Below are positions 839 through 25,600 of a stretch of 64,000 bases of DNA, one piece after another. The stretch lies in NCBI GenBank assembly GCA_009914755.4, contig CP086569.2, positions 11,104,001 through 11,168,000 of the forward strand, in the 5' to 3' direction. A program made the position numbers and the translations under genes. Position 1 is the stretch's first letter. Each line of letters starts with the position of its first letter. The stretch comes from the human T2T-CHM13v2.0 reference genome, Homo sapiens. The notes under the pieces were generated by a model. The model did not search any database, had not been told where the DNA came from, and saw only the letters and a program-made list of their open reading frames with translations.

Positions 839-927
839 TATTTCATTCCACCGTTCCATTGCATTCCACTCCACTCCAGTCCGCTCCACTCCATTCCATT
901 GCATTCTTCTCCATTCCATTCCATATA

Positions 928-4958: not shown

Positions 4959-5023
4959 CTTTATTTCGACTGGCTCTCACTCTGTCACCCAGACTGGAAT
5001 GTAGTGGCACAATCTTAGCTCAC
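4959..5023 (-). mobile_element. Alu 3'-end fragment, variant A
   Basis: ctttatttcgactggctctcactctgtcacccagactggaatgtagtggcacaatcttagctcac. Confidence 0.8.
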
Positions 5024-5344: not shown

Positions 5345-5410
5345 CCTTTATTTCGACTGGATCTCACTCTGTCACCAAGATCAGAGTGCAGTGGCAGAGT
5401 CTTAGCTCAC
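5345..5410 (-). mobile_element. Alu 3'-end fragment, variant A
   Basis: ctttatttcgactggatctcactctgtcaccaagatcagagtgcagtggcagagtcttagctcac. Confidence 0.8.
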
Positions 5411-6026: not shown

Positions 6027-6091
6027 CTTTATTTTGAGTGGATCTCACTCTGTCACCAGGACTGGAGTGAAGTGGTACTATTTTAGCTCAC
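6027..6091 (-). mobile_element. Alu 3'-end fragment, variant A
   Basis: ctttattttgagtggatctcactctgtcaccaggactggagtgaagtggtactattttagctcac. Confidence 0.75.
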
Positions 6092-7232
6092 ATTTCATTT
6101 CACCATTCCATTCCATTCCACTCCATTCCACTCCACTCCACTCCACTCCGTTCCACTCCTCTCCATTTCATTCCACTCATCTCCATTCCATTCCACTCCA
6201 CTCCACTCCGTTCCTCTCCACTCCATTCCATTTCATTCCATACCATTCCATTCATATCCACTCCATTCCATTCCACTCCAATCATCTCCATTTCTTTTCA
6301 TTCCACTCAATTGTATTCCACTCCATTCTATTCCATTTCACTCCAGTCCATTTCATTCCTCTCCACTCCATTCTATTCCATTTGACACCGTTCCATTCCA
6401 TACCACTCCACTGCTCTCCAATTCACTCCAAACTATGCCACTCCATTCCATTCCACTCCACTCCACTACACTGCAATCCGTTCTCTTCCATTCCACTCTA
6501 TTGCATTCCATTCCATTTCATTACATTCCATTCCTGTACATTGCATTCCATTCCATTCCTTTCAGTTCCACTGCACTCTGATCCACTTCAGTCAACTCCT
6601 CCCCACTCCACTCCATTCAACTCCACTCCTTTCCACTCCACTCCATTCCATTCCACTCCACTCCCATACATTACAATCCATTCCCTTCCATTCCACTCCA
6701 ATCAATTCCATTCCATTCCATTCCATTCCATTCCATTCCATTCCATGCCATGCCATGCCATGCCATTCCATTCCATTCCATTCCATTCCATTCCATTCAA
6801 ATCCTTTCAATTCCACTGCAGTCTGATCCACTTCAGTCAACTCCTCCCCACTCCACTCCATTCAACTCCACTCCTTTCCACTCCACTCCATTCCATTCCA
6901 CTCCACTCCCATACATTACAATCCATTCCCTTCCATTCCACTCCAATCAATTCCATTCCATTCCATTCCATTCCATTCCATTCCATTCCATGCCATGCCA
7001 TGCCATGCCATTCCATTCCATTCCATTCCATTCCATTCCATTCCATTCCATTCCATTCAAATCCTTTCAATTCCACTGCAGTCTGATCCACTTCAGTCAA
7101 CTCAACTCCATTCCATTCAACTCCACTCCTTTCCAATCCACTCCAATCCATTCCACCCCACTTCACCCAATTCCACTCCATTCCATTCCACTCCCCTACT
7201 TTTCATTCTATGCTACTCCATTCCATTCCTTT

Positions 7233-7298
7233 CATTTATTTCGACTGGATCTCACTCTGTCACACAGACTAGAGTGCAGTGGCACAATCTTAGATCAC
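7233..7298 (-). mobile_element. Alu 3'-end fragment, variant A
   Basis: catttatttcgactggatctcactctgtcacacagactagagtgcagtggcacaatcttagatcac. Confidence 0.8.
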
Positions 7299-7673
7299 AT
7301 TTCATTTCACCATTCCATTGCATTCCTTTCCACTCCACTCAATTCCATTCCATTCCAGTCCTTTCCACTCCACTCAACTCTACTCCAGTCCACTCCTTTC
7401 CATTCTGCTCCATTCCGTTCTGTTCCATTCCACTCCATTCCTTTCTATTCCGTTCCCTTCCATTATATTCCATTCCATTAAATTCCATTCCATTCCATTC
7501 CATTCCATTCCATTCCATTCCATTCCATTCCATTCCATTCCACTGCAATCCAATCCACTTCACTCAACTCCACTTCACTCCAGTCCACTCGGTTATCATC
7601 CATTCCATTCCATTCCATTCCACTGCATTCCATTCCATTCCATTTCATTCCACTGCATTCCATTCCATTGCTT

Positions 7674-7730
7674 TCCTCGAAAATATCTCACTCTGTCACC
7701 CAGCCTGGAGTGCTGTGGCACAATGTCAGC
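7674..7730 (-). mobile_element. Alu 3'-end fragment (5' part diverged)
   Basis: tcctcgaaaatatctcactctgtcacccagcctggagtgctgtggcacaatgtcagc. Confidence 0.75.
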
Positions 7731-8680
7731 TTTCATTTCACTTCGCCTGTCCATTCAAATCCATTCTATTCTCTTCCATTCCATTCCACTCCACTAGACT
7801 CCACTCCAGTCAATTCCACTCCACTCCACTTCAATCCATTCCAGTACACTCCACTCATTTCCTTCCAATCCAATTCCATTGCACTCCTTCCCACTCCACT
7901 GCACTCCACTCCATTCCATTCCATTCCATTGCAATCCACTGCACTCCACTCCACTCAAATCCATTTTACTCATTACATTTCTGTTCCCCTCCATTCCATT
8001 CCATTCCACTCCATTCCACTCTACTCCATTGCAGTCTACTCCATTCCACTCCACTCCATTCCACTCCACTCCACTCCAATCCAGTACATTCCTTTCCACT
8101 TTACTTCATTCCACTACACTGCACTCCATTCCACACCACTCCACTCCATTCCATTCCTGTCTATTCCACTCCATTGCAGTTCAATCCCCTCCATTGTATT
8201 CCACGACACTCCGTTCCACTCCACTCCACTCCTTTCCACTCCACTCCACTCCATTTCATTCCATTCCATTCCACCCCACTACACTCGAAACAACTATACT
8301 CCTTTCCATTGCATTCCATTCCATTCCATTCCATTCCATTCCATTCCATTGCATTCCATTCCACTCCACATCACTCCACTCCACTCCACTCCATTCCACT
8401 TCACTCCACTGTACTCCACTCCACTTCACCCCACAACACTCCATTCCATTTCACTCCACTCCACTTCATTCCACTCCACTCTATTCCATTCCACTCCAAT
8501 CTATTCCATTCCATTCCATTCCATTCAAACCCGTTCCATTCCACTGCACTCCATTCCATACCACTCCACTCCACTCCATTACACCCCATTCCATTCCGTT
8601 CCACTCCAATTCAGTCCACTCCTCTCCACTCTCCTGCCTTCCACTCCATTCCATTCCACTACATTCAATTTCATTCATTT

Positions 8681-8741
8681 CTTTACACAAGATCTCTCTC
8701 TGTCACAAAGGCTGGAGTGCAGTGGCACAATATCAGCTCAG
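8681..8741 (-). mobile_element. Alu 3'-end fragment, variant C
   Basis: ctttacacaagatctctctctgtcacaaaggctggagtgcagtggcacaatatcagctcag. Confidence 0.75.
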
Positions 8742-9018
8742 TTTACTTTTCACTATTCCTTTGCATTCCATTCCATCCCATTTCATTCCACACTTTCTCA
8801 CTCCATTCCACTCCACTCCATTTCAATACATCCCAGTCCATTCGACTCCATTCCACTCCACTCCTTTCCACTCTTTTCCACTCCACTTCACTCCATTCCA
8901 ATCCATTCCATTCCATTCCATTCCACTCCATTTCATTCCATTCCATTCCATTCCATTCCATTCCATTCCATTCCATTCCATTCCATTCCATTCCATTTCT
9001 CATCATTGAATTCCATTC

Positions 9019-9083
9019 CTTTCTTTCGACACGATATCACTGTGTCACCCAGGCTAAAGTGCAGTGGCATAATCTCAGCTCAC
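9019..9083 (-). mobile_element. Alu 3'-end fragment, variant B (followed by a GCATT tract)
   Basis: cctttctttcgacacgatatcactgtgtcacccaggctaaagtgcagtggcataatctcagctcac, followed by attacatgacaactttccattgcattg. Confidence 0.8.
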
Positions 9084-9180
9084 ATTACATGACAACTTTC
9101 CATTGCATTGCCTTCTATTCTATTACATCACATTATATTGCATAGCTTTGCATTGCGTTGCATTGCATTGCATTCCATAC
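9084..9180. repeat. (GCATT)n/(CATTG)n variant tract downstream of an Alu-fragment variant B.
   Basis: attacatgacaactttccattgcattgcc...cattgcgttgcattgcattgcattcc. The same composite structure recurs at 16,525-16,625, 17,651-17,745, 18,147-18,232 and 19,685-19,800. Confidence 0.7.
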
Positions 9181-9699
9181 CATTCCATTCCATTCCATAC
9201 CATTCCATTGCATTCCACTCCATTCTATTCCATTCCAATCCACTCCTATTCACTCCACTCCACTCCAATCCAATCCAATCCATTCCATTCCATTAAAATC
9301 TACTCCATTCACCTCAATTCCACTAAACTCTACTCCACTCTTCTCCACTCTACTCCACTCCAATCCATTCCATTCCATTCCATTCCACTCCATTCTCCTC
9401 CATTACACTCCATTATACTCCATTCCATTCAACTTCACTCCACTCCACTCCACTCCACCTCATTCCATTCCCGTTCACTACACTTCACTCAATTCCACTC
9501 CATTCCCCTCCAATCCATTCCATTCCAATCCACTCCACACGACTCCACTCCACTCCATTCCATTGGATTCTATTCCACTCCGCTCCACACAATTTCATCC
9601 CATTCCACTCCATTCATTTCCACTCCACTCCACCTCACTCTAGTCCACCCCACTCCAATCCACTGCATTCCATTCCATTCCAGTGCAATCCACTCCACT

Positions 9700-12600
9700 C
9701 AAATCAATCCCACTCCTCTTCTCTACTCCCTTCCATTTCATTCCATTCCATTCCATTCCATTCCTTTGCTTTCCATTCCATTCCATTCCATTAAATTCCT
9801 TTCCACTCTATTCCCTTCCATTCCACTCCATTCCATTCCACTCCTCTCCATTCCATTCCAGCCCATTGCACTCCTCTCTACTCCAGTCCATTCCATTCCA
9901 TTCCACTTCACTGCACTCCATTCCATTCCATTCCTTTCCATTCCAGTCCATTCCCCTGTACTCCATTCCTTTCCAATCCATTCCTCTCGACTGCACTCCA
10001 TTCCCTTCCCTTCCATTCCCTTCCTTTCCATTCCATTCCATTCTATTCCTTTCCACTCCACTGCACTACACTCCATTCCTTTCCATTTCACTCCAATCCA
10101 ATCCACTCCATTCCACTACACTTTTCTTATTTCCTTTCCACTTCCTCCATTCTATTCCTCTCCATTCCATTCCATTCCATTCCATTCCATTCCATTCCAT
10201 TCCATTCCATTCTCTCCACTCTATTACATTCCACTCCACTACATTTCATTCCATTTCACTCCACTCCCCTCCACTCCATTAACCTAAACCCCACTACTCT
10301 CCACTCCATTCTTTTCCACTTCTCTCCATTCCATTCCATTCTCTTCCATTCCATTCCACTGCACTCCGATCCACTCCACTCCACTCCACTCTACTCCATT
10401 GCATTCCGTTACATGTGATTCCATTCCACTCCATTCCACTTCTCTCCACTCCACTGCACTCTACTCCACTCCATTCCACTTCATCCCATTCCATTCTACT
10501 CCATTCCACTGCACTCGTCTTCACCCAATATCTCTCCACCTCATTGCATTCCATTCCATTCCACTGCCCTCCACCCTATTCCACTCCACTTCAGTCCACT
10601 CCACTCCACTCTACTCCAGTACACTCCATTCTATTCCATTCCATTCCTTTCTATCCTATTCCATTCCTTTCTAATCCATTCCATTCCATTCATTTGCTTT
10701 CCGTTCCATTCCATTCCATTAAATTCGTTTCCACTCTATTCCATTCCATTCCACTCCTCTCCATCCCATTCCAGCCCATTGCTCTCCTCTCTACTCCATT
10801 CCATTCCATTCCATTCCATTCCATTCCATTCCATTCCATTACATTCCACTCCACTGCACTCCATTCCATTCCCTTCCATTCCCTTCCATTCCATTCCATT
10901 CCGTTCCATTCAATTCCATTCTATTCCTTTCCACTCCACTGCACTACACTCCATTCCATTCCATTTCACTCCCACCCAATCCACTCCATTCCACTACACT
11001 TCTCTTATTTCCTTTCCATTTCCTCCATTATATTCCTCTCCATTCCATTCCGTTCCATTCCATTGAATTCCATTCCATTCCATTCCACTCCGTTCCATTC
11101 TCTCCACTCTATCACATTCCACTCCACTACATTCCATTTCATTTCACTCCACTCCCTGCCACTCCATTAACCTAAACCCCACGACTCTCAACTCCATTCT
11201 ATTCCACTCCATTCCATTCCATTCCATTCCATTCCACTGCACTCCGATCCACTCCACTCTACTCCATTGCATTCCGTTATATGTGATTCCATTCCACTCC
11301 ATTCCACTTCTCTCCACTCCACTGCACTCTACTCCACTCCATTCCACTCTATCCCATTCCATTCTACTCCATTCCACTGCACTCGTCTTCACCCAATATC
11401 TCTCCACTTCATTCCATTCCATTCGATTCCACTGCCCTCCACCCCATTCCACTCCACTTCACTCCACTCCACTCCACTCTACTCCAGTACACTCCATTCC
11501 CTTCCATTCCATTCCATTCCATTCCATTCAATTCTATCCTATTCCATTCCTTTCTAATCCATTCCATTCCTTTGTATTCCATTCCATTAAATTCCTTTCC
11601 ACTCTATTCCATTCCATTCCACTCTGTTCCATTCCACTCCTCTCCATTCCATTCCAGCCCATTGCACTCCTCTCTACTCCAGTCAATTCCATTCCATTCC
11701 ACTGCACTGCACTCCATTCCATTCCATTCCATTCCATTCCATTCCATTCCATTCCATTCCTTTCCATTCCAGTCCATTCCCCTCTACACCATTCCTTTCC
11801 AATCCATTCCTCTTGACTGCACTCCATTCCATTCCCTTCCATTCCCTTCCATTCCATTCCATTCCATTCCATTCCATTCCATTCCATTCCATTCCATACC
11901 ATTCTGTTCCTTTCCACTCCACTGCACTACACTCCATTCCATACCATTCCACTCCCATCCAATCCACTCCATTCCACTACACTTCTCTTATTTCCTTTCC
12001 ACTTCCTCCATTCTATTCCTCTCCACTCCATTCCATTGCATTCCAATCCATTCCACTCCATTCCATTCTCTCCACTCTATTACATTCCACTCCACTACAT
12101 TCCATTCCATTTCTCTCCACTCCCCTGCACTCCATTAACCTAAACCCCACGACCCTCCACTCCATTCTGTTCCACTTCTCTCCATTCCATTCCATTCCAT
12201 TCTCTTCCATTCCATTCCACTGCACTCCGATCCACTCCACTCCACTCCACTCTACTCCATTGCATTCCGTTACATGTGATTCCATTCCACTCCATTCCAC
12301 TTCTCTCTACTCCACTGCACTCTACTCCACTCCATTCCACTCTAACCCATTCCATTCTACTCCATTCTACTGCACTCGTCTTCACCCAATATCTCTCCAC
12401 CTCATTCCATTCCAATCCATTCCACTGCCCTCCACCCCATTCCATTCCACTCCACTTCACTCCACTGCACTCCACTCTACTCCAGTACTCTCCATTCCGT
12501 TCCATTCCATTCCATTCCATTTTATCCTATTCCATTCCTTTCCAATCCATTCCATTCCATTCCTTTGCTTTCCATTCCATTCCATTCCATTAAATGCCTT

Positions 12601-13030
12601 AACACTCTATTCCATTCCATTGCACTCCATTCCATTCCACTCCTCTCCATTCCATTCCAGCCCATTGCACTCCTCTTTACTCCAGTCTATTCCATTCCAT
12701 TCCATTTCACTCCTCTGCACTCCATTCCATTCCATTCCATTCCAGTCCATTCCCCTCTACTCCATTCCTTTCCAATCCATTCCTCTCGACTGCACTCCAT
12801 TCCATTCCCTTCCATTCCATTCCATTCCATTCCATTCCATTCCATTCCATTCCATACCATTCTATTCCTTTCCACTCCACTGCACTACACTCCATTCCTT
12901 TCCATTTCACTCCCATCCAATCCACTCCATTCCACTACACTTCTGTTATTTCCTTTCCACTTCCTCCATTCTATTCCTCTCCATTCCATTCCATTCCATT
13001 CCATTCCATTCCATTCCATTCCATTCCTTC
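9700..13030. repeat. Local HSat3 higher-order repeat, about 0.88-1.0 kb unit, about 3.5 copies, with no Alu fragment inside it.
   Basis: Marker ttaaattc(c/g)tttccactctattcc at 9,791, 10,711, 11,587 and 12,588. Marker taacctaaaccccac at about 10,281, 11,168 and 12,137. Marker ccgtta(c/t)atgtgattcc at about 10,405, 11,275 and 12,270. The ORF track shows near-identical translated peptides in the successive copies. Confidence 0.8.
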
Positions 13031-13089
13031 CTCGAGAGTATCTCACTCTGTCACCCAGCCTGGATTGCCGTGACACAATATCAGCTCTC
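13029..13089 (-). mobile_element. Alu 3'-end fragment, variant C. It terminates the 9.7-13.0 kb HOR.
   Basis: tcctcgagagtatctcactctgtcacccagcctggattgccgtgacacaatatcagctctc. Confidence 0.75.
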
Positions 13090-13730
13090 ATTTCATTTCA
13101 CCATTCCATTACATTCTATTCCACTCCACTAGACTCCACTCCATTCCATTCCACTCCACTCCACTTCATTGCATTCCAGTCCATTCCACTCATTTCCTTT
13201 CCTTCGAATTCCATTGCACTCCTTTCCTCTCCACTGCACTCCACTGCACTGCACTCCATTCCATTCTGTTCCACTCCATTGCATTCCATTCCAGTCTTCT
13301 CCACTCCACTCAACTCCATTCCACTAATTTCCTTTCTGTTCCACTCCATTCCATTCTATGCCATTCCACTCTACTCCATTGCAGTCTACTGCATTCCACT
13401 CCACTCTACTCCTTTCCACTCCTCTTCAGTCCACTCCAGTCCACTCCATTCAAATACTCTCTACTCCTATCCATTCCACTCCACTTCAGACCGCTCCCCT
13501 CCATTCCATTTCCCTGCCCTCCGATCCACTCCACACAACTCCACTCCACTCCGCTCCACTCTGTTCCATTCCATTCGGTTTGTTTTGTTCTGTTCCTTTC
13601 CACTCCAATCCACTCCATTTCACTGTACTCAACTACATTCCATTACATCTGATTCCATTTCACTACATTCCAGTCCTTTCCATTTCACTACACTCCATTC
13701 CATACCATACCACTGCATTCCATTCCAATA

Positions 13731-13823
13731 TTTTCTTTTGGCAGGATTTCCCTGTGTCACCAAGGCTGGATTGCAGTGGCACAGTCACCAAGGCTGGATT
13801 GCAGTGGCACAATCTCAGCTCAC
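13731..13823 (-). mobile_element. Alu 3'-end fragment, variant C, with an internal 27-bp tandem duplication
   Basis: tcaccaaggctggattgcagtggcaca occurs twice, at 13,756-13,782 and 13,784-13,810, then atctcagctcac follows. Confidence 0.75.
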
Positions 13824-13915
13824 ATTTCATTTCACCATTCCATTAGCCTCCATTCCATTACATTCCACTCCACTCCTCTCCATTCCTCTCCACTCCACTC
13901 AATTCCATTCCATTC

Positions 13916-13979
13916 CTTTATTTCGATTGGATTTCACACTATCACCCTGACTGCAGTGCAATAGCACAATCTTAGCACA
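13916..13979 (-). mobile_element. Alu 3'-end fragment, variant A (diverged)
   Basis: ctttatttcgattggatttcacactatcaccctgactgcagtgcaatagcacaatcttagcacat. Confidence 0.7.
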
Positions 13980-14218
13980 TATTTTATTTCACCATTGCAT
14001 TCCATTCCATTCCACTCCATTCCATTCCATTCAACTCCATTCCATTCCATTCCGTTCCTCTCCATTCCATTCCATTCCATTCCACTCCATTCCATTCCAT
14101 TCCATTCCATTCCATTCCATTCCATTCCATTCCACTGCATTGCACTCAGCTCCACTCAATTCCACTCCACTCCAATCCATTCCTTACCATTCCATTTAAA
14201 TCCCTTCCATTCCACTCC

Positions 14219-14280
14219 TTTCTTTCAACACATTGTCCCTGTCACACAGGTTGTAGCGCAGTGGCACAAACTCAGCACAC
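14219..14280 (-). mobile_element. Alu 3'-end fragment, variant C (diverged)
   Basis: cttctttcaacacattgtccctgtcacacaggttgtagcgcagtggcacaaactcagcacac. Confidence 0.7.
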
Positions 14281-14444
14281 TTCACTTTTCTCCATATCAT
14301 TCCTTTCCACTCCACTCCCCTCCTCTCCTTTCCACTCCACTCCATTCCACTCCACTCCACTCCAATCCATTTCATTCCATCCCATTCCATTCCACTCCTT
14401 TCAAATCCACTCCACTCCATTCCATTTTATTCCACTGTATTCTA

Positions 14445-14508
14445 TTCCTTGATTTTCTTTCTACAGGATCGCAATCTGTCACACAGGCTGGAGTGCAGTG
14501 GCACAATC
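14445..14508 (-). mobile_element. Alu 3'-end fragment, variant C
   Basis: ttctttctacaggatcgcaatctgtcacacaggctggagtgcagtggcacaatctcaacccac. Confidence 0.75.
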
Positions 14509-14684
14509 TCAACCCACATTTTGTTTCACCCTTCCATTAAATTCCATTCCATTCCATTCCATTCCATTCCATTCCATTCCATTCCATTCCATTCCATTCC
14601 ATTCCCCTCCATTCCATTCCCTTCCACTCCACTCCAATGCACTCCACTCCACTCCACTCTAATGAATTCAATTCTTCTTCATTC

Positions 14685-14753
14685 AATTGCATTCTTTTTT
14701 TTTTTTGGACTGGATATCACGCTCTCACCAAGACAGGAGTGCAGTGGCACAAT
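14685..14753 (-). mobile_element. Alu 3'-end fragment that retains a 12-nt poly-T run, the remnant of the Alu poly(A) tail
   Basis: tttttttttttt ggactggatatcacgctctcaccaagacaggagtgcagtggcacaatctaagcttac. Confidence 0.8.
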
Positions 14754-15464
14754 CTAAGCTTACATTACATTTCACCATTCCATTCCATTTCATTCCATTC
14801 CATTCCATTCCATAGCATTCAATTACACACTACTCCGTCCATCCCATTCCACTCCACTCCATTCCATTCCACTCCACTCCCCTCCAATCCATTCCACTCT
14901 ACTCCAATCAATTCCAATCCACTCCACTCCATTCCACTACACTCCATTCTATTCAATTCTTTTTCATGCTATTCCATTCAACTGCTTTGCATTTCATTCC
15001 ACTCCACTGAACTCCACTTCATTCCATTCCACTTCTCTCTACCCCACAGCACTCCATTCCCTTCCACTCCACTGCACTCCACCCCACTCCACTCTGATCT
15101 GCTCCATTCCATTCCACTCCACTGCATTCCATCCCACACTTCAGTCCCCTCCATTCCATTGCATTCCGTTCCATTCTTTTCCATTCCATTCCTCTCCTCT
15201 CCTTTTCATTCAATTCCACTTCACTCTACTCAACTCTATTCCATTCCATTCTTCTCCAATCCATTACTTTCCACTCCATTCCATTCCATTCCACTCCACT
15301 CCACTCCACTCCACTCCATTCCACTCCACTCCACTCCATTCTATTACAATCCACTCCATTATATTCCATTCCACTAGACTCCACACCACTCCAGTCCCCT
15401 CCAATCTACCTCACGGCACTGCATTCCATTCCATTAAATTCCACTCCTTTACATCCCATTCCTT

Positions 15465-15524
15465 TCCTTCAACAGAATCTCATTCTGCAACCAGGCTGGA
15501 GTGCAGTGGCAAAATCTCAGCTCA
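15465..15524 (-). mobile_element. Alu 3'-end fragment, variant C
   Basis: ccttcaacagaatctcattctgcaaccaggctggagtgcagtggcaaaatctcagctcat. Confidence 0.75.
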
Positions 15525-16460
15525 TATTTCATTTATCATTCCATTCTATTCCATTCCATTTTTATCCATTCTATTCCCGTCTACTACATTCCATTCCACT
15601 CCACTCCACTCCATTCCACTCAATTTCATTCCATTCCATTCCATTCCATTCCATTCCATTCCATTCCACTCTACTGCACTCCTCTCCACCACACTCCTAT
15701 CCACTGCATTCCATTCCATTAAATTGCATTCCAGGCATTTCATTCCACTCCACTCCACTAAACTCCAATACGTTCCATTCTTCACCAGTCTACTCGATTT
15801 CACTCCATTCCACTCCACCCCAGTCCATTCCACTCCATTCCACAACACTCCAGTACATTCCTTTCCACTCCACTCCATTCTCTTCCATTCCATTCCATTC
15901 AATTTCTCTTCATTTCATTCCATTCCCCTCTATTCCATTCAACTTCACTCCATTAGATTCCAGTCAACTCCATTCCACTCCACTCCACTCCATTCCATTC
16001 CATTCCATTCTATTCTATTCCATTCTATTCCATTCCACTCCACTCCACTCCTTTCCGTTACAATACATTCCACTCCATTCCACTCTACTCCACTCCACTG
16101 AACTCCATTCCATTGCATTCCACTCCATTTTATTCCATTACATTCCACTCCACTCCACACCACTCCACTCCATTCCACTCCATTCCACTCCATTCCTTTC
16201 CATTCCACTCCACTCTACTCCACTCCTCTTCACTATGCTCCATTCCATTGCATTCCAATCCACTCCATTCCACTCCACTCCCTTCCTTTCCATTGCACTA
16301 CACCCAATTCCACTCCACTCCACTCCATTCCCCTTCAGTCCAGTCCACTCCACCCCATGCCACTCCTCTGTAGTGCATTCCACTCCACTGCACTCCACTC
16401 TACTCCAATCCACTCCATTACATTCCATTCCGTTTGATTTCACTCCACTGCATTCCATTC

Positions 16461-16524
16461 CTTTCTTTCAACAAGATATCATTGTATCACCCAGACTGGA
16501 GTGCAGTGGCACAGTCTCAACTGA
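16461..16524 (-). mobile_element. Alu 3'-end fragment, variant B (GCATT tract follows to about 16,625)
   Basis: ctttctttcaacaagatatcattgtatcacccagactggagtgcagtggcacagtctcaactgac, followed by attacatgtcctctttcttttgcattgcatt. Confidence 0.8.
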
Positions 16525-17586
16525 CATTACATGTCCTCTTTCTTTTGCATTGCATTCTATTCCATTGCCTTGCATTGCATTGCATTGCGTTGCATTCCAG
16601 AGCATTGTATTGCATTCCATTCCATTCCATTCCTTTCCATCCCATTCCATTCCATTCCACTTCCTTCCATTCCATTCAACCCCATTCACCTCCACTCCAC
16701 TCCACTCCACCCCACTCCATTGCATTCCATTCCATTACAGTGCACTCCACTGCACTCCATTCCATTCCACTTCAATCCACTCCACTCCACTCCTCTCCAT
16801 TAAATTCCATTCCATTCCACTCTATTCCACTCTTCTCCACCACACTTAACTCCATTCCATTCCATTCCATTCCACTCCATTCCATTCCATCCCACTCCAT
16901 TCCAGTCCATTCCACTCCACTCCACTCCACTCCACTATATTACTTTCCATTCCTCTCACTCCACTCCATTCCACTCCATTCCACTTCACTCCACTCCATT
17001 CCAGTCCACTCCACTGCATCCCACTGCACTCCACTGCATTCCATTCCACTCCACTCCATTCCCTTCCATTCAATTCCACCCCCTTCCACTCCACTCCATT
17101 CCACTCCCCTCTGTTCCATTTCACCCCACTCATTTCCATTCCTGTCAACTCCATTCTACTCCACTCTACTCCATTCCTTTCCTTTCTATTCCACTCCATA
17201 CCACTCCATTCCATTCCATTCTACTCCACTCAAATCCACTTCATTCCACTCCATTCCACTCCAGTGAACTCCTTTCCACTCCATTCCATTACCTTCCACT
17301 CCACTCCTCTCCGTTCCGTTCCATTCTACTCCATTCCACTCTACTCCACTTCACTCCACTCCAATTCACTCCGCTCCATTCCATTCCAATCCTTTCCACT
17401 GCATTCCACTTCACTCCATTCCATTCCATTCCACTCCACCCCATTCCACTCCTCTCCATTCCATTCCAATCCAGTTCAATCCGCTCCACCCCATTCCAAT
17501 CCACCCCACTGTATACCACTCCAATCCACTCCATTCTACTCCAATCCAGTCCATTCCATTCCATTTCTCTCCACTGTATTCCATTC

Positions 17587-17650
17587 CTTTCTTTCAACAG
17601 GATGTCACTGTGTTACCCAGGCTGGAGTGCAGTTACAGTATCTCAGCTCA
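17587..17650 (-). mobile_element. Alu 3'-end fragment, variant B (GCATT tract follows to about 17,745)
   Basis: ctttctttcaacaggatgtcactgtgttacccaggctggagtgcagttacagtatctcagctca, followed by aattgaatgtcaactttccattgcgttgcatt. Confidence 0.8.
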
Positions 17651-17843
17651 AATTGAATGTCAACTTTCCATTGCGTTGCATTCTATTTCATTGCCTTACA
17701 ATGCTTTGCGTTGCATGGCATTCCATTGCATTGCAAAGCATTCCATTCCATTCCATTCCATTCCATTCCATTCCATTCCATTCCATTCCATTCCATTCCA
17801 TTCCATTCGTTTCCATTCCATTCCACTCCATTCCATTCCATTC

Positions 17844-17907
17844 CTTTCTTTAAACAGGATCTCTCTCTGTCACAAAGGCAAGAGTGCAGTGGCAGATTCT
17901 CAGCTTA
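17844..17907 (-). mobile_element. Alu 3'-end fragment, variant C
   Basis: cctttctttaaacaggatctctctctgtcacaaaggcaagagtgcagtggcagattctcagcttac. Confidence 0.75.
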
Positions 17908-18083
17908 CATTTATTTTCACCATTCCATTGTATTCCATTCCATCCCATTCCATTCTACTCTATTTCACTCCACTCCACTTCTCTCCATTCCTTTCCAATC
18001 GACTCCATTGCACTCCATTCCAATCCACTCCACTCCACTCCATTCCATTCCATTCCATTTCACTCCATTGCATTCCATTCCTT

Positions 18084-18146
18084 CCTTTCGACAGGATATC
18101 ACTGTGTCACCAAGACTTAATTGTAGTGGCACAATCTCACCTCACA
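18084..18146 (-). mobile_element. Alu 3'-end fragment, variant B (GCATT tract follows to about 18,232)
   Basis: cctttcgacaggatatcactgtgtcaccaagacttaattgtagtggcacaatctcacctcac, followed by attacatgtcaactttccattgcattgtatt. Confidence 0.8.
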
Positions 18147-18996
18147 TTACATGTCAACTTTCCATTGCATTGTATTCTACTCCATTGCATTCCATTGCAT
18201 TCCCTTCCATTCCTTTGTATTTCATTCCACTCCACTCCATTGCACTCCATTTCACTCCACTCCTTTGCTCTCCACTGCATTCCACTACATTCCTTTTCAC
18301 TCTACTCCATTCCACTCCAATAGACTCCACTAAACGCCACTCCATTCCATTCCACTCCACTCCACTCCAGGCCAATCCAGTCCACTCCATTCCACTCCAC
18401 TCCAATCCATTCCATTTGACTCCACTCCATTCCATTCCACTTCACTCCATTACAATCCTATCTACTCCACTCCATTCCACTCCACTCCACTCCATTCCAT
18501 TCCTGTCCAATCCACTCCATTCCTCTCCACTCCACCCCACTCCACTCCATTTCATTCCACTCTACTCCATTCCACTCCACTCCACTGGATTCCAATCCAC
18601 TCCACCCCACTGCATCCATTCCATTCCATTCCACTGCACTCCACTCCTCTCCATTCCACTCCATTCCATTCCATTCCACTCCATTCCACTCTACTCCCCT
18701 ACTCTCCACTCCAATCCACTCCACTCCTTTCCATTCCATTACATTCCACTCTATTCCACTGCTCTCCATCCCATTCCATTCTTCTCCTCCCCATTCCACA
18801 CCTCTCCACTCCTTTCCTCTCCTGTCCCATCCACTCTAACCCATTCCACTCCACCCCATTCCACTCCACCCCACTGCATTCCACTCCACTCCATGCCATT
18901 CCATTCCACTGCATTCCACTCCAATCCCCTCTACTTCACTCCACTCCACTCCTCTCCAGTACAGTCTGTTCCTTTCCACTGCATTAATTTCCATTC

Positions 18997-19060
18997 CTTT
19001 TTTTGGAAGGATCTCACTCTGTCACCCAGGCTGCTGTGCAGTGGCACAATCTCAGCTCAC
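18997..19060 (-). mobile_element. Alu 3'-end fragment, variant C
   Basis: cctttttttggaaggatctcactctgtcacccaggctgctgtgcagtggcacaatctcagctcac. Confidence 0.8.
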
Positions 19061-19183
19061 ATTTCATTTCTCCTTTCCGTTCCATTCCATTCCACTGCAC
19101 TCCACTCCAACCCACTTAATTGCATTCCACTCCACTCCAATCCGTTACATTCCATTCCTATCCAATCCCTTACATTCCACTCC

Positions 19184-19247
19184 TTTCTTTTGAAAGTATA
19201 TCCCTCTGTCACCGATGCTGTAGCATAGTCATGCAATCTCAGCACAC
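19184..19247 (-). mobile_element. Alu 3'-end fragment, variant C (diverged)
   Basis: cctttcttttgaaagtatatccctctgtcaccgatgctgtagcatagtcatgcaatctcagcac. Confidence 0.65.
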
Positions 19248-19618
19248 ATTTCTTTTCACCATTCCATTGCGTTCCATTCCATTTCTCTCCACTCCCTTCC
19301 ACTGCTTTCCATTCCACTCCACTCAACTCCATTCCATTGCAATCCACTGCACTCGACTCCACTCAGTTTCATTCCATTCCACTCCATTCCCCTCCCCTCC
19401 TCTCCTTTCCATTCCAATCCTCTCCATTCCACTCCATTCCATTCCATTCCATTCCATTCCATTCAACTCGTTTTCACTCCACTCCACTCCACTCCTTCCC
19501 ATTCCACTCCATCCCATTCCATTCGACTCCATTCCACTCCACTCCACTCCTCTCTTTTCTAATCCACTTCATGCGATTCCATTCCATTCCATTCCATTTC
19601 AAACCGTTGCATTCCATT

Positions 19619-19684
19619 CCTTTCTTTTGAGAGGATATCACTATGTCACCCAGGCTGGTGTGCAGTGGTATAATCTCAGCTAAC
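19619..19684 (-). mobile_element. Alu 3'-end fragment, variant B (GCATT tract follows to about 19,800)
   Basis: cctttcttttgagaggatatcactatgtcacccaggctggtgtgcagtggtataatctcagctaac, followed by attacatgtcaactttccattgcattgcatt. Confidence 0.8.
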
Positions 19685-22600
19685 ATTACATGTCAACTTT
19701 CCATTGCATTGCATTCTATTCCTTTGCTTTGCATTGCATTGCATTGTTTTCCATTACCTTGCATTCTATTCCATTCCGTTTCATTCCAGGGCATTCCTTT
19801 GCATTCCACTCCTTTCCATTCCATTCCACTCCACTCCATTTCACTCAACTTCACTCCACTCCATTCCATTCCATTCCATTACACTCACTCCACTCCATAC
19901 CATCCCACCCTTTCCACTCCATTCCACTCAATTCCAGTTCACTTCACTCCAGTCCAATCCACTCGATTCCACTTCAATCCATTCCGTTCCATTCCACTCC
20001 ATTCCATTCCACTCCACTTCATTCCATTCCACTCCACCCCATTCCATTCCAGTCCACTGCACTCCATCGACTCCATTTCATTCCATTCCATTCCACTCCA
20101 CTGCACACCACTCCATTCCATTACACACCATTCCTTTCCACTCCACCCCACTCCAATCCATTCTTGTCCACTCCACTCCAATGGGGGCATTGTTACATAT
20201 TTCTGCACTGATCACCCAGGTAATGCAACTGTTGTCTACACTCTGCCTACAGGGGCATTGTGACATATCACTACACTGATCCCACAGGTGATGAGACTCT
20301 TCTCCACGCTCTGCCTACAGGGGTCTTTGTGACATATCACTGCACTGATCACTCAGGTGATGGGACTCTTCTCTATACTCTGCCTAGAGGGGGATTTGTA
20401 ACATAGTTTTGCTCTGACCACCCAGGAGATGGAAGTCTTGTCTAGGCTCTATCTATGGGGGCATTGTGTCAAATATCCGCACTGATCATCGAGGGGATTT
20501 AACGTTGTCAAGGCTCTGTCTACAGGGATTTTTGTGGCATATCACTGCATTAATCACCAAGATGATGTAACTCTTCTCTAGGCTCTGTTTACATGGGCAT
20601 TTTCACCTATCACTGCACTGATCACCCAGGTGATGTAACCCTTGTCTAGGCTCTGCCTACCAGGGCTTTGTGACACATCTCTACACTGATCACCCGGGTG
20701 ATGTAAGTCTTTGTTGGATCTGCCTATGGGAGCATGCGACATATCTCTGCAGTGATCACCCAGGTGACAGGACCCTTTTCTAGGCTCTCTGTATGGGGGA
20801 TTTGTGACATATCTCCGCACTGATCACCAAGGTGATGTAACGTTTGACTAGGCTCTGCCTACTGGGGCATAGTGACATATCACTGCACTAATCACCGAGC
20901 TGATGTACCTCTTACCCAGGCTCTGCCAATACGGGGTCTTTTGACATATCTCTGCACTGATTGTCTAGGTGATGTTACTCTTGATTACGTTCTGCCTGCA
21001 GGGGCATTGTGAAATATATATTTACTGATCAAACAGGATATGTAACTCTTCTCTAATCTCTGTCTACAGGTGGCATTGTGGCATAACACTGCACTGATCA
21101 CCCAGGTGATGGGACTCTTCTCCAGGTTATGCCTACTGGGGACACTGTCACATATTTCTGCAGTGATCACCCAGGTGACGGACTTTTGTCTTGGATCTGG
21201 CTATGGGTGCAATGTGACATATCTCTGCATTGATCATCCAGGTCATGTAACTCTGGTCTAAGCACTGCCTAAAGGGACATTGTGACAGATCTCTGCACTG
21301 ATCACTCAGGTGATCTAACTATTGTCTAGGTTCTGCTTAAAGGAGCCTTGTCACATACCTCTGCACTGATTACCGAGGTGATGTAACTCTTGTCAAGGAT
21401 CTCCTTTCAGGGGGTATTGTTACACGTCTCTGAACTGATCACCTAAGTGATGTGACACTAGCGTAGGCTTTGCCTACAGGGGCATTTTGACATATCTCTG
21501 CACTGTTAACCGAGGTGATGTAACTATTTTCTAGGCTGTGACCACAGGGGGATCGAGACATATATCTGCACTAATCGCCAGGTGATCCAACTGTTGTCTG
21601 GGCTCTGCCTACTGGGGACATTGTGACATATCTCTGCACTGATCTCCCAAGTGATGTAACTTTTGTCTAGGCTCTGGCTACGCGGCATTTTGACATATCA
21701 CTGCACTGGACACCCAAGTGATATAACTCGTGTCTAGGCTCTGCCTACAGGGGGCCTGTGACATACCTCTGCACTGATCACCCAAGTGATGTAACTCTTG
21801 TCTGGGATCTGCCTGCAGGTTGCTTTGTGACATATCCCGTCAATGATCACCCAGGTGATGTACCACTTGTCAAGGCTCTGCCTACAGGGGCATTGTGAAG
21901 TATCTCTGCACTGATCACCTAGGTCATATAACCCTTGTCTAGGATCTCTCTGCAGTGGCATTGTGACATATCTCTGCAGTGATCACCCAGGTAATGTAAC
22001 TCTTGTCTAGGATCTGCCTATAGGGTGCTTTGTGACATTTCCCTGCAATGATCACCCAGGTGATATGCCATTTGTCTAGGCTCTGCCTACAGGGACATTA
22101 CGATGTATCTCTGAACTGATCACCTAGATCACGTATTTTTTTCTAGGTTCTGCCTACAGTGGCACTGTGGCATATCTCTGCAGTGATCACCCAGGTGATG
22201 TAACTCTTGTCTAGAATCTGACTACATGGTGCTTTGTGACATATCCCTGCAATGTTCACCAAGGTGTTGTACCACTTGTCAAAGCTCTGCCTGCTGGAGC
22301 ACTGCGACGTATCTCTACACTAATCACCTAGGTCATGTAATTCTTTTCTAGGATCTTCCAACAGTGGCATTGTGACATATCTCTGCACTGATCACCCAGG
22401 TGATGTAACACTTGTCTAGGATCTGTCTAAAAAGACTTTGTGACATAACTTTGCGCTGATCCCCCAGGTGAAGGGACTTTTGTCTATGCTCTGCTACGGT
22501 GGCATTGTGACATATCTCTACACTGATCACCCAGGTGTTGTAACTCTTGTGTTGGATCTGCCTACTGGGCATTGCGACATATTGCTGCACTGATCACCAA

Positions 22601-25600
22601 GGTGATGTGACTCTTGTCTTGTCTAGGCTCGGTGTATGGGGGATTTGTGACTTATCTCTGCACTGATTACCCAGGTGATGTAACGCTTGACTAGGCTCTG
22701 CCTACTGGGACACAGAGACAGATCATTGCATTGATCATCAAGCTGATTTGTCTGTTGTCCAGGATCTGTCTACAGGGGGCCTTGTGACGTATCTCTGCAC
22801 TGATCATCTAGGTGCTGTATCTCTTGCTTACGTTCTTTTTGCAGGGGCTTTGTGAAATATCTCTGTATTGATCAACCAGGTGATGTAACTCTTGTCTAGG
22901 CTCTGCCTACAGGGGGCATTGTGGAATAACTCTGCACTGATCACCCAGGTGATGTAACTCATCTGAGCTCTGCCTACAGGGGCCTTGTGACATATCACTG
23001 CACTAATCACCCCGGGGAGAGAATTCCTCTCTAGGCTCTACTTACAGGGGGCTTTGTGACCTGTCTCTGCAATGATCACCCAGTGATGTAACACTTGTCT
23101 AGGATCTGCGTTAAGGGACTTTGAGACATAACTCTGCACTGATCATCCAGGTGTTGGGGCTTTTATCTAGGCTCTGCCTACAGGGGCATTGTGACGTATT
23201 TCTGCACTGAACACCCAGGTGACGGACTCTTGTCTTGCATATGCCTATTTGGGATTTCTGGCATATCTCTGCACTGATCACCCAGGTAATGAAACTGTGC
23301 TATAAGCTCTGCCTACAGGGGAATTTTGAGAGATCTCTCCACTGTTCACCCAAGTGACGTAACTATTTTCTAGGCTTTGCCTACAGGGGGTTTGTGACAT
23401 ATCTTTGCACTGATCACCCAGTGATGTAACTCCTCTAAGCTCTTCCTTCAGGGGCCTTGTGACATTTCTCTGCCATGCTTACCCTGGGGAGAGAATTCTT
23501 GTCTACGCTCTGCCTACAGGGGTCTCTGTGACATATCACTGCACTGATCTTGAAGGTGATGTAACAGTTTTATAAGCTCTGCCTACAGAGTGTATAGTGA
23601 AATATATCTGCACTGATCACCTAGGTGATGTAACTCTTGTCTACCCTCTGCCTGCAGGGGGCATTGTGAAATATCTCTGCACTGATCAACTAGGTGACGT
23701 AACCCTTCTCTAGTCTCTGCCTACAGGGGCGTTTTGACATATCTCTGAACTGGTGACAAAGGTGATGTAACTCTTGCCTAGGCTTTGCCTGCAGGAGACA
23801 TTGTGACATATCTCTGCACTGATCACACAGGTGATGTAACTCTTGTCTAGTCTTTGCCTACAGAGGGCGTTGTGGCATATCTCTGTACTGATCTCTCAGG
23901 CGAGGTAACTCTTGTCTAGTCTCTGCCTACAGAGGGCATTGTGACATCACTCTGCAATGATCACCCAGGTGATGTAACTCTTGTCTAGGCTCTGCCTACC
24001 GGGGCATTTTAACATATCACTGCACTGATCACTGAGATGATGTAACTCTTGTATATGCTTCGCTGACAGGGGGCATTGAGACATATCTCTCTGTTGATCA
24101 CCGAGGTGATGCTAGTCTTGTCTAGGATCTGCCTGTAGAGGGCATTGTGAAATATCTCTGACCTGATCATCCAGGTGATGTAATTCTGGTCTAGGCTCTG
24201 CCTACTGGAGACACTGTGACTTATCTCTGCACTGATCACACAGGTGATGTAACTCTTGTCTAGTCTTTGCCTACAGAGGGCGTTGTGGCATATCTCTGCA
24301 CTGATCTCTCAGGTGAGGTAACTCTTGTCTAGTCTCTGCCTGCAGAGTGAGTTGTGACATCACTCTGCAATGATCACCCAGGTGACGTAACTCTTGCCTA
24401 GGCTCTGCCTACATGGATATTGTGACATGTCTGTTCACTGATCACCCAGGTGATGTAAATTTTGTCTAGTCTCTGCCCACATGAGGATTTTGATATATCC
24501 CTGCACTGATCACCGAGATGATGTAACTCTTTTCTGGGCTTTTCTGACAGGAGGCATTGAGACATATCTCTGCACTGATCACTGAGGTGATGCAACTCTT
24601 GTGTGGGCTCAGCCTACAGGGGGCATTGTGACATACCTCGGCCCTGATCACCCAGGTGATGTAACTCTTGTCTAGGCTCAGCCTAAAGGTGGTATTGTGA
24701 CATATCTCTGCACTGATAACCCAGGTGATGCAATTCTTCTCTAGGATCTGCCTACAGGGGCATTGTGACATATCTCTGCACTGATCACAAAGGTGATGTA
24801 ACTCTTCTTTAGGCTCTGCCTGCAAGGTGCTTTGTGAAATCAATCTGTATTGATAATCCAGGTGATGTAACATTTGTCTAGGCTCTGCCTAAGGGGGCAC
24901 TGTGACACATCTCTGCACTGATCACTGAAGTGATGTGACCCCTGTCTAAGTTCCCCCTATGGGTGCATTGTGAGATATCTCATCACTGATTCCCCAAATT
25001 ATGTAACCCTTTTCTAGGGTTTGCCTAAAGGGGGATTTGCCACATATGTCTGTACTGATCACCCAGGTGGTGTAACCCTTTTCTGGGGTCTGCCTACAGG
25101 GAAGTTGTGACATATCACTGCACTGATCACCCAGGTGATGTAACTTTTCTCTGGGCTGTACTTTCATGGGTCTTTGTGACATATCTCTGCACTGACCAAC
25201 TAGGTGATGTAACTCTTTTCTAGGCTTTTCCCGGAGGAGGCATTATTACATATCTCTACAATGATCACTGAGGTAGTGCAACTCTTGTCTACGCTATGCC
25301 TACAAGGGCATTGTGACATATCCCTACACTCATAACACAGGTGATGTCACTCTTGTCTAAGCTCTGCCAACCGGGGTCTTAGTGACATAACTCTGCACTG
25401 ATCACTCAGATGATGGTACTCTTCTCAATACTCTGACTAGAGGAGGATTTGTGACATATCCCTGCACTGATCACCCAGGTGATCGAAGTCTTGTCTAGGC
25501 TCTGTCTAAGGGGGCATTGTGTCAAATATCTGCACTGATCACCCAGGTGATGTAACTCTTTTCTAGGCTCTGTCTACAGGGATTTTTGTGATATATCACT

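What the first reader, a model, noticed from the sequence alone, without database searches (positions are those of the whole stretch)
8680..19800. Three fragment variants mark distinct HSat3 sub-domains, and variant B is fused to a (GCATT)n tract
Variant A (tttatttcgactggatctcac...aatcttagctcac) dominates 776-7,300 and 44,959-58,942. Variant C (ctttctttcaacaggatctc...aatctcagctcacatttcatttc) and variant B (the C-like 5' part followed by acattacatgtcaactttccattgcattg and an 80-110 bp (GCATT)n/(CATTG)n tract) dominate 8,680-9,180, 13,029-19,800, 43,541-44,730 and 60,369-61,794. The arrays are therefore mosaics of sub-arrays that descend from different founder units. The B composite (Alu fragment plus GCATT tract) behaves as a single unit.
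Basis: seen in the sequence. Interest (0 to 1): 0.5.

Follow-up and report, generated by a model that had tools for sequence, protein, structure and literature searches.

The report
Alu-fragment variants in a pentamer satellite
A CATTC/CACTC pentamer satellite (HSat3-like) is punctuated by 54 same-strand copies of one old 64-bp Alu tail fragment, and the fragment's sequence variants sit in blocks along the array; this is real but is ordinary satellite evolution by local duplication.

Summary
A profile search finds 54 copies of a ~92-bp element, all on the + strand. Each holds 64 bp of antisense Alu 3' end plus junctions. They lie in the two pentamer-satellite arms (1-20,183 and 41,017-64,000) that flank a 20.8-kb beta-satellite block.

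A and non-A copies form 11 runs against 27.7 expected (p about 1e-5).

Corrections:
- B and C do not occupy separate domains. They are interleaved in one B/C domain.
- The two A-type copies at C/B-domain positions (13,909 and 61,934) each directly follow an 'n'-type C copy, the same n-then-A order seen in outside contigs.
- B is not a fusion. It is colinear with C and differs by four substitutions in the tail, after which CCATT pentamers read GCATT.
- Only the five left-arm B copies carry a long GCATT-rich block (35-70 bp). The three right-arm copies carry 0-2 units.

Sixty metagenome contigs, presumably human contamination, carry the same B element, always with the Alu head. There A, B and C types are interleaved in fixed multi-fragment orders.

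Published T2T work already reports Alu fragments inside HSat3 units. Interest is low.

The parts
772..7318 (+). A-only sub-domain 1, with 8 A-type fragment copies at 772-859, 921-1011, 3488-3578, 4731-4821, 4952-5042, 5339-5429, 6022-6111 and 7228-7318
   Evidence: nhmmer hits. Diagnostic columns score 3-4 of 4 as A. K-means places them in the A cluster.
7665..7754 (+). C-type copy of the CTCGAAAATATC subtype. Its nearest relative is the copy at 13,023.
8671..8759 (+). C-type copy. Its nearest external type is 'j', and it is the first half of a C-then-B pair.
9012..9103 (+). B-type copy (Alu head plus CATTACATG(A)CAACTTTCCATT tail)
   Evidence: It is 5.4% from the external type 'a' consensus.
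9105..9174 (+). GCATT-rich block of 14 pentamers that follows the B copy at 9,012
9200..13026 (+). Fragment-free sub-domain. It is a tandem repeat of a unit of about 0.88-0.97 kb, in about 4 copies at 76-81% identity, and is related to 1,010-2,777.
   Evidence: shared 18-mer chains; blastn self-alignment
13023..13109 (+). C-type copy
13724..13843 (+). C-type copy whose nearest external type is 'n'. It carries an internal 28-bp tandem duplication (13,755-13,810).
   Evidence: two overlapping nhmmer hits; duplication shown
13909..13999 (+). A-type copy inside the C/B domain, directly after the 'n'-type copy. This matches the external n-then-A order.
14212..14298 (+). C-type copy, diverged
14447..14537 (+). 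C-type copy
14694..14783 (+). Hybrid copy: A-like at 2 of the 4 diagnostic columns, with a long T run at the 5' end
15456..15543 (+). C-type copy
16454..16542 (+). B-type copy
16547..16616 (+). GCATT-rich block of 14 pentamers after the B copy at 16,454
17580..17671 (+). B-type copy
17673..17742 (+). GCATT-rich block of 14 pentamers after the B copy at 17,580
17837..17928 (+). C-type copy whose nearest external type is 'j'. It lies between two B copies.
18074..18165 (+). B-type copy
18167..18201 (+). Short GCATT-rich block (35 bp) after the B copy at 18,074
18991..19079 (+). C-type copy
19176..19267 (+). C-type copy, diverged
19613..19704 (+). B-type copy
19706..19765 (+). GCATT-rich block (about 60 bp) after the B copy at 19,613
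20184..41016 (.). Context: a beta-satellite block (68-bp unit) that separates the two pentamer arms. It has an internal inverted segment at 29,406-34,033.
   Evidence: Tandem Repeats Finder; AT-skew sign change
41019..43495 (+). Two copies of a ~0.94-kb unit at 81% identity. Each carries one A-type fragment, at 41,758-41,847 and 42,711-42,799.
   Evidence: The two fragments are each other's nearest relatives at 7.9% distance.
43535..44724 (+). Right-arm C/B sub-domain. It holds one C copy (type j, 43,535-43,625) and three B copies at 43,727-43,818, 44,337-44,427 and 44,624-44,710, followed by only 0, 2 and 2 GCATT units.
44953..58963 (+). A-only sub-domain 2, with 19 copies (18 A and 1 hybrid at 57,061). 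It contains an old duplication at an offset of about 7.3 kb (44,859-49,684 against 52,101-56,908).
   Evidence: The duplicated stretches are 76-77% identical against a background of about 73%, with a top bit score of 1638. Nearest-relative fragment pairs sit at 7.2-8.2 kb offsets.
60363..62024 (+). Distal C sub-domain. C copies lie at 60,363-60,449, 61,018-61,108 and 61,723-61,809, followed by an A-like hybrid at 61,934-62,024, which again gives the n-then-A order.

Best explanation
One old Alu inserted, antisense to the CATTC strand, into a CATTC/CACTC pentamer satellite. Only its last ~58 bp plus A-tail remained, giving 64 bp in all. That piece was then carried along as a passenger while the surrounding satellite was amplified by unequal exchange or tandem duplication.

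This produced monomers of the form 'Alu fragment plus 100-1,500 bp of pentamers'. The monomers diverged into sequence types:
- C is closest to Alu.
- A is a derived type with four linked substitutions.
- B is a derived type with substitutions in the head and four in the tail, followed by pentamers in which CCATT became GCATT.

Later duplications copied either single monomers or multi-monomer blocks. The window is therefore a patchwork:
- Two A-only stretches. The larger contains an old ~7.3-kb duplication.
- C/B stretches that keep ancestral neighbour pairs (C 'j' then B; C 'n' then A).
- Fragment-free ~0.9-kb tandem units.
- An inserted beta-satellite block.

Shown here: single strand, shared boundaries, discrete types, positional clustering, and the presence and order of the same types in outside contigs. 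Inferred: the insertion-then-amplification history, the C to A and C to B polarity, and unequal exchange as the mechanism. No cellular function is implied. The variants are lineage markers.
For: - All 54 window copies and 492 of 494 external copies are on the same strand relative to CATTC.
- All copies share the same Alu boundary (...GCTCAC|ATT...) and the same T-rich end.
- The C consensus scores highest against the Alu 3' end (86-88). A scores 76-84 and B 74-76.
- The diagnostic columns are almost perfectly linked. In the window, A:C scores are 4:0 or 3:0-1 versus 0-1:3-4, apart from two hybrids at 2:0. In the outside copies 266 score (0,4), 21 score (4,0) and few are intermediate.
- K-means recovers A, B and C. 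The runs test gives p about 1e-5.
- Local tandem units exist of about 0.9 kb, 0.94 kb x2 and about 7.3 kb.
- Every external B-tail hit with enough upstream sequence has the Alu head.
- The external consensus of type 'a' differs from the window B consensus at one column only.
- The external contigs show fixed orders of 40 or more types. The 'b-c-e-d' block occurs in four different upstream contexts at 96-99.9% identity, so the family is truly multicopy.
- Window copies map to external types of the same class and keep the j-a and n-C neighbour order.
Against:
- Identity of the window j-a and n-C pairs to the external pairs (82-89%) lies within the upper range of random-window background (mean 79%, maximum 88%). 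The conserved-neighbour argument therefore rests on type assignment and order, not on identity.
- The external contigs were selected for a B motif, so they cannot show whether A-only arrays exist elsewhere.
- Different contigs may sample the same locus in different people.
- No decay of similarity with distance was found within domains (Mantel test). Apart from a few pairs, the amplifications are old.
- The pentamer composition around the fragments does not differ clearly between domains.
Confidence: 0.85

Rival explanations
1. The three variants mark three independent arrays. Each would have grown from its own founder unit and later been juxtaposed.
For: A-only stretches of 8 and 19 consecutive copies exist, and the boundaries are sharp.
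Against: - B and C are interleaved wherever either occurs.
- A-type copies occur inside C/B stretches at positions that match the external n-then-A order.
- In the external contigs all three classes alternate within single contigs in reproducible orders.
Confidence: 0.1
2. B arose by recombination or fusion. In this model a C-type Alu fragment was joined to an unrelated GCATT microsatellite.
For: GCATT is rare in the rest of the satellite (0.44 per 110 bp) but occurs 3-8 times after the left-arm B copies.
Against: - The B tail occupies the same alignment columns as the C/A tail with no gap and differs at four positions.
- B also has its own substitutions in the Alu head (GATATCACTGTG), so the differences are spread along the element rather than starting at a breakpoint.
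- GCATT differs from CCATT by one base and keeps the pentamer phase.
- A GCATT tract also follows an A copy.
Confidence: 0.05
3. The fragments are many independent Alu insertions, or gene conversions from dispersed Alus, and the variant blocks reflect different source Alus.
For: One external copy (L052) has a longer, more Alu-like T run and GAGACAGGGTCTC at its 5' end. Some 'x' types (GACGGGGTCTC) are also more Alu-like.
Against: - The truncation point and orientation are the same in 54 of 54 window copies and 492 of 494 external copies.
- All CpG sites show the same CpA state in all three consensus sequences.
- No target-site duplications or longer Alu parts were seen.
Confidence: 0.03

Closest known systems
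HSat3 arrays that contain ancient transposon or Alu fragments in their repeat units, organised as nested tandem repeats (Altemose et al. 2021 preprint 10.1101/2021.07.12.452052, citing Bandyopadhyay et al. 2001; Rhie et al. 2023 preprint 10.1101/2022.12.01.518724)
   Same: - It is a pentamer (CATTC-derived) satellite with embedded Alu pieces that are part of the repeating unit.
- It has kilobase-scale nested repeat units.
- It is associated with beta satellite that shows mosaic inversion, as described for acrocentric short arms (PMC9186530).
- It is rich in ACTCC pentamers, which in T2T-CHM13 localise to chromosomes 13, 14, 15, 21 and 22 and are nearly absent from chromosome 9 (PMC11305138).
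   Different: - Rhie et al. report no local homogenisation and no clustering of HSat3-associated Alu fragments. Here the variants are clearly clustered along 5-15 kb stretches.
- The classical satellite 3 decamer (CAACCCGA / CGGGTTG) is absent, and none of the 14 published top subfamily 24-mers occurs exactly, so the subfamily is unassigned.
- The species and chromosome of the window are not known.
HSat1B / DYZ2 composite satellite (Alu subunit plus AT-rich and GC-rich parts)
   Same: A single old Alu piece became part of a satellite repeat unit and was amplified with it.
   Different: DYZ2 is a homogeneous ~2.4-2.5-kb unit with a much longer Alu part and AT-rich sequence. The element here has 64 bp of Alu within pentamer repeats and variable spacing.
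Alpha-satellite organisation: monomer types, higher-order repeats, and older diverged 'monomeric' layers
   Same: - There are discrete monomer types in fixed orders in homogeneous arrays (external contigs).
- The window by contrast holds diverged stretches, with about 18-19% pairwise distance within A and within B, and about 23% within C.
   Different: Monomer length is not fixed here (spacing 150-2,600 bp). The monomer is defined only by the Alu landmark. No centromere role is known.
WaluSat (64-nt satellite next to AluSx3 on acrocentric short arms; Hoyt et al. preprint 10.1101/2021.07.12.451456)
   Same: A 64-nt length, an association with Alu, and an acrocentric setting.
   Different: WaluSat is a non-Alu 64-mer repeated head to tail beside an Alu. 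Here the 64 bp is itself Alu sequence, occurs singly, and is separated by pentamers. The shared length is a coincidence as far as the evidence goes.

Membership tests
Human satellite 3 (HSat3) | Arrays derived from the (CATTC)n pentamer, strongly strand-asymmetric | tested here: met
   ATTCC is 27-28% and ACTCC 19-22% of all pentamer positions. GC skew is about -0.8 across both arms.
Human satellite 3 (HSat3) | Classical satellite 3 decamer (CAACCCGAGT / A(T/C)TCGGGTTG) interspersed among the pentamers. This definition is from memory of Prosser et al. 1986. | tested here: not met
   CGGGTTG, CAACCCGA and CCCGAGT each occur 0 times on either strand.
Human satellite 3 (HSat3) | Carries subfamily-specific 24-mers of Altemose et al. 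2014 (A1-A6, B1-B5) | tested here: inconclusive
   Only the single most common 24-mer per subfamily (Table 1 of PMC4022460) could be tested. None matches exactly in the window, and only 2A2 matches, three times, in the 201 kb of external contigs. The full 24-mer sets were not available.
Alu element | A ~300-bp dimeric SINE with a left arm, internal promoter boxes, A-tail and target-site duplication | tested here: not met
   Only the last ~58 bp plus a tail remnant is present (fragment columns 9-72), and all copies share that boundary. It is an Alu-derived fragment, not an Alu copy.
Beta satellite | A 68-bp tandem unit with Sau3A (GATC) sites | tested here: met
   Tandem Repeats Finder gives a period of 68-69 bp and about 300 copies over 20,184-41,016. 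The consensus contains TGATCACC.
Nested tandem repeat / higher-order repeat organisation | A multi-monomer unit repeated head to tail at high identity | tested here: inconclusive
   - The window shows only old, short examples: a ~0.9-kb unit in about 4 copies at 76-81%, a 0.94-kb unit x2 at 81%, and a ~7.3-kb duplication at 76-77%.
- The external contigs show fixed type orders and a block at 96-99.9% identity in four contexts. One contig (L023) shows a 1.57-kb period.
- No contig is long enough to show several full periods.
Acrocentric short-arm satellite III | Location on chromosomes 13, 14, 15, 21 or 22 | not testable with these tools
   No human or ape genome assembly can be searched here. 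The only support is indirect: an ACTCC-rich composition and an adjacent beta satellite with an inversion (PMC11305138, PMC9186530).

The most novel reading that the evidence does not exclude
The Alu-punctuated pentamer satellite may be a family with its own monomer-type system. It would have 40 or more types grouped in the A, B and C classes, organised like alpha satellite. Homogeneous multi-monomer arrays would exist elsewhere in the genome, with old diverged layers such as this window next to beta satellite. If so, the Alu landmark would give a usable 'monomer' coordinate system for dating and ordering expansions in HSat3-like arrays. It would also qualify the published statement that HSat3-associated Alu fragments show no local homogenisation or clustering.
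Probability: 0.3. Interest if true: 0.35.

Novelty: already known. Interest (0 to 1): 0.18.

Why it matters
The finding matters little beyond annotation. The Alu piece is a convenient landmark in a satellite that otherwise has no fixed unit length. Typing it (A, B, C and finer types) gives a simple way to delimit sub-arrays, to order duplication events, and to design probes or unique markers for such regions. It adds nothing new in principle to what T2T studies report for HSat3. It only modestly qualifies the statement that these Alu fragments show no local structure.

Tried and rejected
- **Average-linkage clustering:** on the 92-column distances it only split off two diverged outliers. K-means and Ward clustering were used instead.
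- **Published 24-mers:** the single top 24-mer per HSat2/3 subfamily gave no exact hit, so the subfamily stays unassigned.
- **Pentamer composition:** 1-kb bins with the fragments masked do not separate A from C/B domains. There is only a weak excess of ATTGC and ACTCC in some C/B bins.
- **Flank motif test:** a fuzzy-motif test of type-specific upstream flanks was too permissive in pentamer sequence and was dropped.
- **Spacing:** the A-A versus non-A spacing difference is not significant (p = 0.14).
- **Mantel tests:** there is no decay of similarity with distance within domains.
- **blastn between arms:** left arm against right arm gives only the generic ~72-75% pentamer background, with no long paralogy.
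- **Scans for an A-specific junction motif:** Genome contigs and viral contigs each returned 0 hits. Whether A-only arrays exist elsewhere remains open.
- **Rfam:** a gathering-threshold search of the whole window returned 0 matches.
- **WaluSat:** it was considered because of the shared 64-nt length and rejected on its published description.
- **Literature:** Jarmuz et al. 2007 could not be read because it is not held. A search for Altemose's 2022 HSat review did not return the review itself. Hoyt et al. do not mention HSat3 or pentamers.

Full report
**What the window is**

Composition and Tandem Repeats Finder show two strongly C-over-G skewed pentamer-satellite arms, at 1-20,183 and 41,017-64,000. 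They are on the same strand. Between them lies a 20.8-kb beta-satellite block (68-bp unit, 20,184-41,016) that contains an inverted segment at 29,406-34,033.

The arms are a mixture of ATTCC (27-28% of positions) and ACTCC (19-22%) pentamers. The classical satellite 3 decamer is absent, and none of the 14 published top subfamily 24-mers occurs exactly (24-mers from Table 1 of PMC4022460). 'HSat3' is therefore correct in the broad sense of a CATTC-derived pentamer satellite, but the subfamily is unassigned.

**Checking the observation**

A fuzzy search for the Alu core GGCTGGAGTGCAGTGGC found 49 + strand sites. A profile HMM built from these and run with nhmmer found 55 strong + strand hits (E 1e-14 to 1e-28). 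These make 54 elements, because the copy at 13,724 is split by an internal duplication. No credible - strand hits appeared, and none fell in the beta satellite.

In the 92-column alignment, four columns are almost perfectly linked:
- A copies read TTTATTT, GACTGG, CAGACTGG and AATCTTAGC.
- C and B copies read TTTCTTT, GACAGG, CAGGCTGG and AATCTCAGC.
- B copies have in addition the tail CATTACATGTCAACTTTCCATTGCATTG.

K-means with k=3 on the one-hot alignment reproduces these labels for every copy and has the best silhouette of k=2-5.

The order along the window is AAAAAAAACCBCCACCxCBBCBCCB, then the beta satellite, then AACBBBAAAAAAAAAAAAAAxAAAACCCA. A versus non-A gives 11 runs where permutation gives 27.7 on average. 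Only 1 of 100,000 permutations was as low.

**Corrections to the observation**

- Two A copies at 41,758 and 42,711, and a C copy at 7,665, were not listed.
- A-type or hybrid copies sit at C/B-domain positions at 13,909, 14,694 and 61,934.
- There are eight B copies.
- Only the five in the left arm are followed by a GCATT-rich block: 70 bp at 9,105, 16,547 and 17,673, about 60 bp at 19,706, and 35 bp at 18,167.
- The three in the right arm have 0, 2 and 2 GCATT units.
- The three 70-bp blocks are colinear, pentamer by pentamer (GCATT GCATT CTATT NCATT GCNTT ...). Within that sub-lineage the block was inherited, not grown independently.
- A GCATT tract also follows one A copy, at 52,903-52,982.

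**What the fragment is**

The consensus sequences were aligned to Alu consensus sequences. Columns 9-72 (64 bp) match the reverse complement of the last ~58 bp of Alu plus the A-tail. The match ends sharply at ...GGCTCAC, after which the sequence reverts to pentamer-like ATTTCATTTCACCATTCC.

C matches Alu best (score 86-88), then A (76-84), then B (74-76). All Alu CpG sites read CpA in all three consensus sequences. The same boundaries and strand are found in 54 of 54 window copies and 492 of 494 outside copies. This points to one insertion that was then amplified with the satellite.

The B tail lies in the same columns as the C tail, with no gap and four substitutions. B also has its own changes in the Alu head (GATATCACTGTG). 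B is therefore a diverged lineage of the same element, not a fusion product.

**Outside evidence**

A scan of metagenome contigs for CATGTCAACTTTNNATTGCATTG returned 60 contigs (201 kb) with 63 matches. They are presumably human contamination.

- Every match with enough upstream sequence has the Alu head.
- The contigs have the same pentamer mix as the window and one fragment per ~400 bp, 494 in all. Of the 483 copies complete enough to type, 356 are C, 71 B, 22 A and 34 intermediate.
- Clustering at 6% distance gives 40 or more recurrent fragment types. These appear in fixed orders across contigs, for example m-b-c-e-d-g-u-x-v-G-a-o-p-q-r-s-t-y-H-I-w-F-j-a and l-i-a-h-B-f-n-C-Q. B types (a, b), A types (u, C) and C types are interleaved.
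- The b-c-e-d block occurs behind four different neighbours at 96-99.9% identity, so these are real multicopy arrays rather than one locus sampled repeatedly.
- Window copies map to outside types of their own class. All eight B copies map to 'a', at 5-15% distance.
- Three C copies that directly precede a B copy (8,671, 17,837, 43,535) map to 'j'. Type j is directly followed by a in all 11 places where it is seen in these contigs.
- The C copies at 13,724 and 61,723 map to 'n' and are each followed by an A-type copy, as in the outside n-C pairs.
- The identity of these pairs to the outside pairs (82-89%) is not clearly above the pentamer background (mean 79%, maximum 88%). This point therefore rests on type and order only.

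None of the outside copies is the window's own locus; the nearest is 5-6% away. Species and chromosome thus remain open.

**Structure inside the window**

- Shared rare 18-mers and blastn show a fragment-free tandem unit of about 0.88-0.97 kb over 9,200-13,026 at 76-81% identity. It is related to 1,010-2,777.
- Two copies of a 0.94-kb unit lie at 41,019-43,495 at 81% identity, each with an A fragment.
- A 245-bp tandem lies at 6,577-7,136.
- The large A domain contains an old duplication at an offset of about 7.3 kb (44,859-49,684 against 52,101-56,908). It is 76-77% identical against a background of about 73%. It is also visible as nearest-relative fragment pairs at 7.2-8.2 kb.
- Apart from that, similarity among copies does not fall with distance within domains.
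- Mean pairwise distance within a class is 18-23%. The window is therefore an old, decayed part of the family.
- The bulk pentamer make-up does not distinguish A from C/B domains.
- The two arms share no long paralogy.

**Interpretation**

The best reading has four stages:
1. One 5'-truncated old Alu landed in a pentamer array.
2. It was amplified with its flanks by unequal exchange or tandem duplication.
3. The resulting monomers diverged into types.
4. Later duplications of single monomers (the A-only stretches) or of multi-monomer blocks (the C/B stretches, and the outside arrays) built the present mosaic.

The 'B plus GCATT tract' unit holds as Alu head plus tail plus about four pentamers everywhere. 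The long tract is limited to one sub-lineage. No function is suggested by any result. Rfam finds nothing in the window.

**Relation to what is known**

- The T2T centromere paper states that HSat3 often includes fragments of ancient transposons in its repeating units, citing Bandyopadhyay et al. 2001 on acrocentric satellite III. It introduces nested tandem repeats for HSat2/3.
- The T2T-Y paper describes HSat3 blocks intermingled with Alu fragments on the Y and the acrocentrics. It reports no local homogenisation or clustering of those fragments. The block structure seen here qualifies that statement at the kilobase scale but is not a new kind of thing.
- ACTCC repeats localise to the acrocentric centromeric regions and are nearly absent from chromosome 9.
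- Acrocentric short arms carry HSat3 next to beta satellite with mosaic inversions.

An acrocentric short arm is therefore a reasonable guess for the window, at roughly even odds, but it is untested. WaluSat, also 64 nt and Alu-associated, is a different sequence type by its description.

**Verdict**

The phenomenon is an ordinary and already described feature of HSat3-type satellites, and interest is low.

Noticed in passing
window 20184-41016 (inverted part 29406-34033): A 20.8-kb beta-satellite block (68-bp unit) is inserted between two pentamer arms of the same orientation. It contains a 4.6-kb internal inversion. The junctions with the pentamer satellite are abrupt, at ...ccactccaa|tggggg... 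on the left and ...cttgtataggat|cactccactcc... on the right.
   Followed up: partly
window, all fragment copies (alignment columns 9-72): Every CpG of the Alu-derived part reads CpA on the + strand in the A, B and C consensus sequences; none reads TpG. The decay is strand-asymmetric and fits the extreme G-poverty of this strand. With five or six sites the chance of one direction only is about 3-6%.
   Followed up: no
window 13755-13810: There is a 28-bp tandem duplication inside one Alu fragment (tgtcaccaaggctggattgcagtggcac x2, one mismatch).
   Followed up: yes
window 44859-49684 and 52101-56908: An old duplication at an offset of about 7.3 kb lies inside the large A-only domain. Each half carries a matching series of A fragments. 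Identity is 76-77%, against about 73% for unrelated pentamer alignments.
   Followed up: partly
window 9200-13026 and 1010-2777: These are fragment-free stretches built from a ~0.9-kb tandem unit. The same unit type appears once about 10 kb away inside the first A domain.
   Followed up: partly
window 52814-52982: An A-type copy has a 6-bp deletion in the Alu core and is followed by two GCATT runs. These resemble the start of the B-associated block although the B tail is absent. This may be independent origin or exchange between types.
   Followed up: no
L030 1-14034: This external contig has about 2 kb of non-satellite sequence, then about 10 kb of a different, lower-GC HSat type (CATTCGAGTCC / GATTCCATTCG motifs). 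Only from about 12.1 kb does it carry the Alu-punctuated satellite. It is a junction between satellite subfamilies that might help place the family on a chromosome.
   Followed up: no
L052 1-105; external types 'e' and 'r': One external B copy has a longer T run and GAGACAGGGTCTC at its 5' end, which is closer to a real Alu. Type 'r' is C-like at diagnostic columns 12 and 20 but A-like at columns 42 and 65. It could be an intermediate between C and A, or a conversion hybrid.
   Followed up: no
L023, L047, L020, L035, L012: The external block b-c-e-d(-g) follows four different neighbours (z-m, f-k, a-k, d-g) at 96-99.9% identity. In L023 it shows a 1.57-kb period. This points to structural variants of a homogeneous higher-order unit.
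   Followed up: partly
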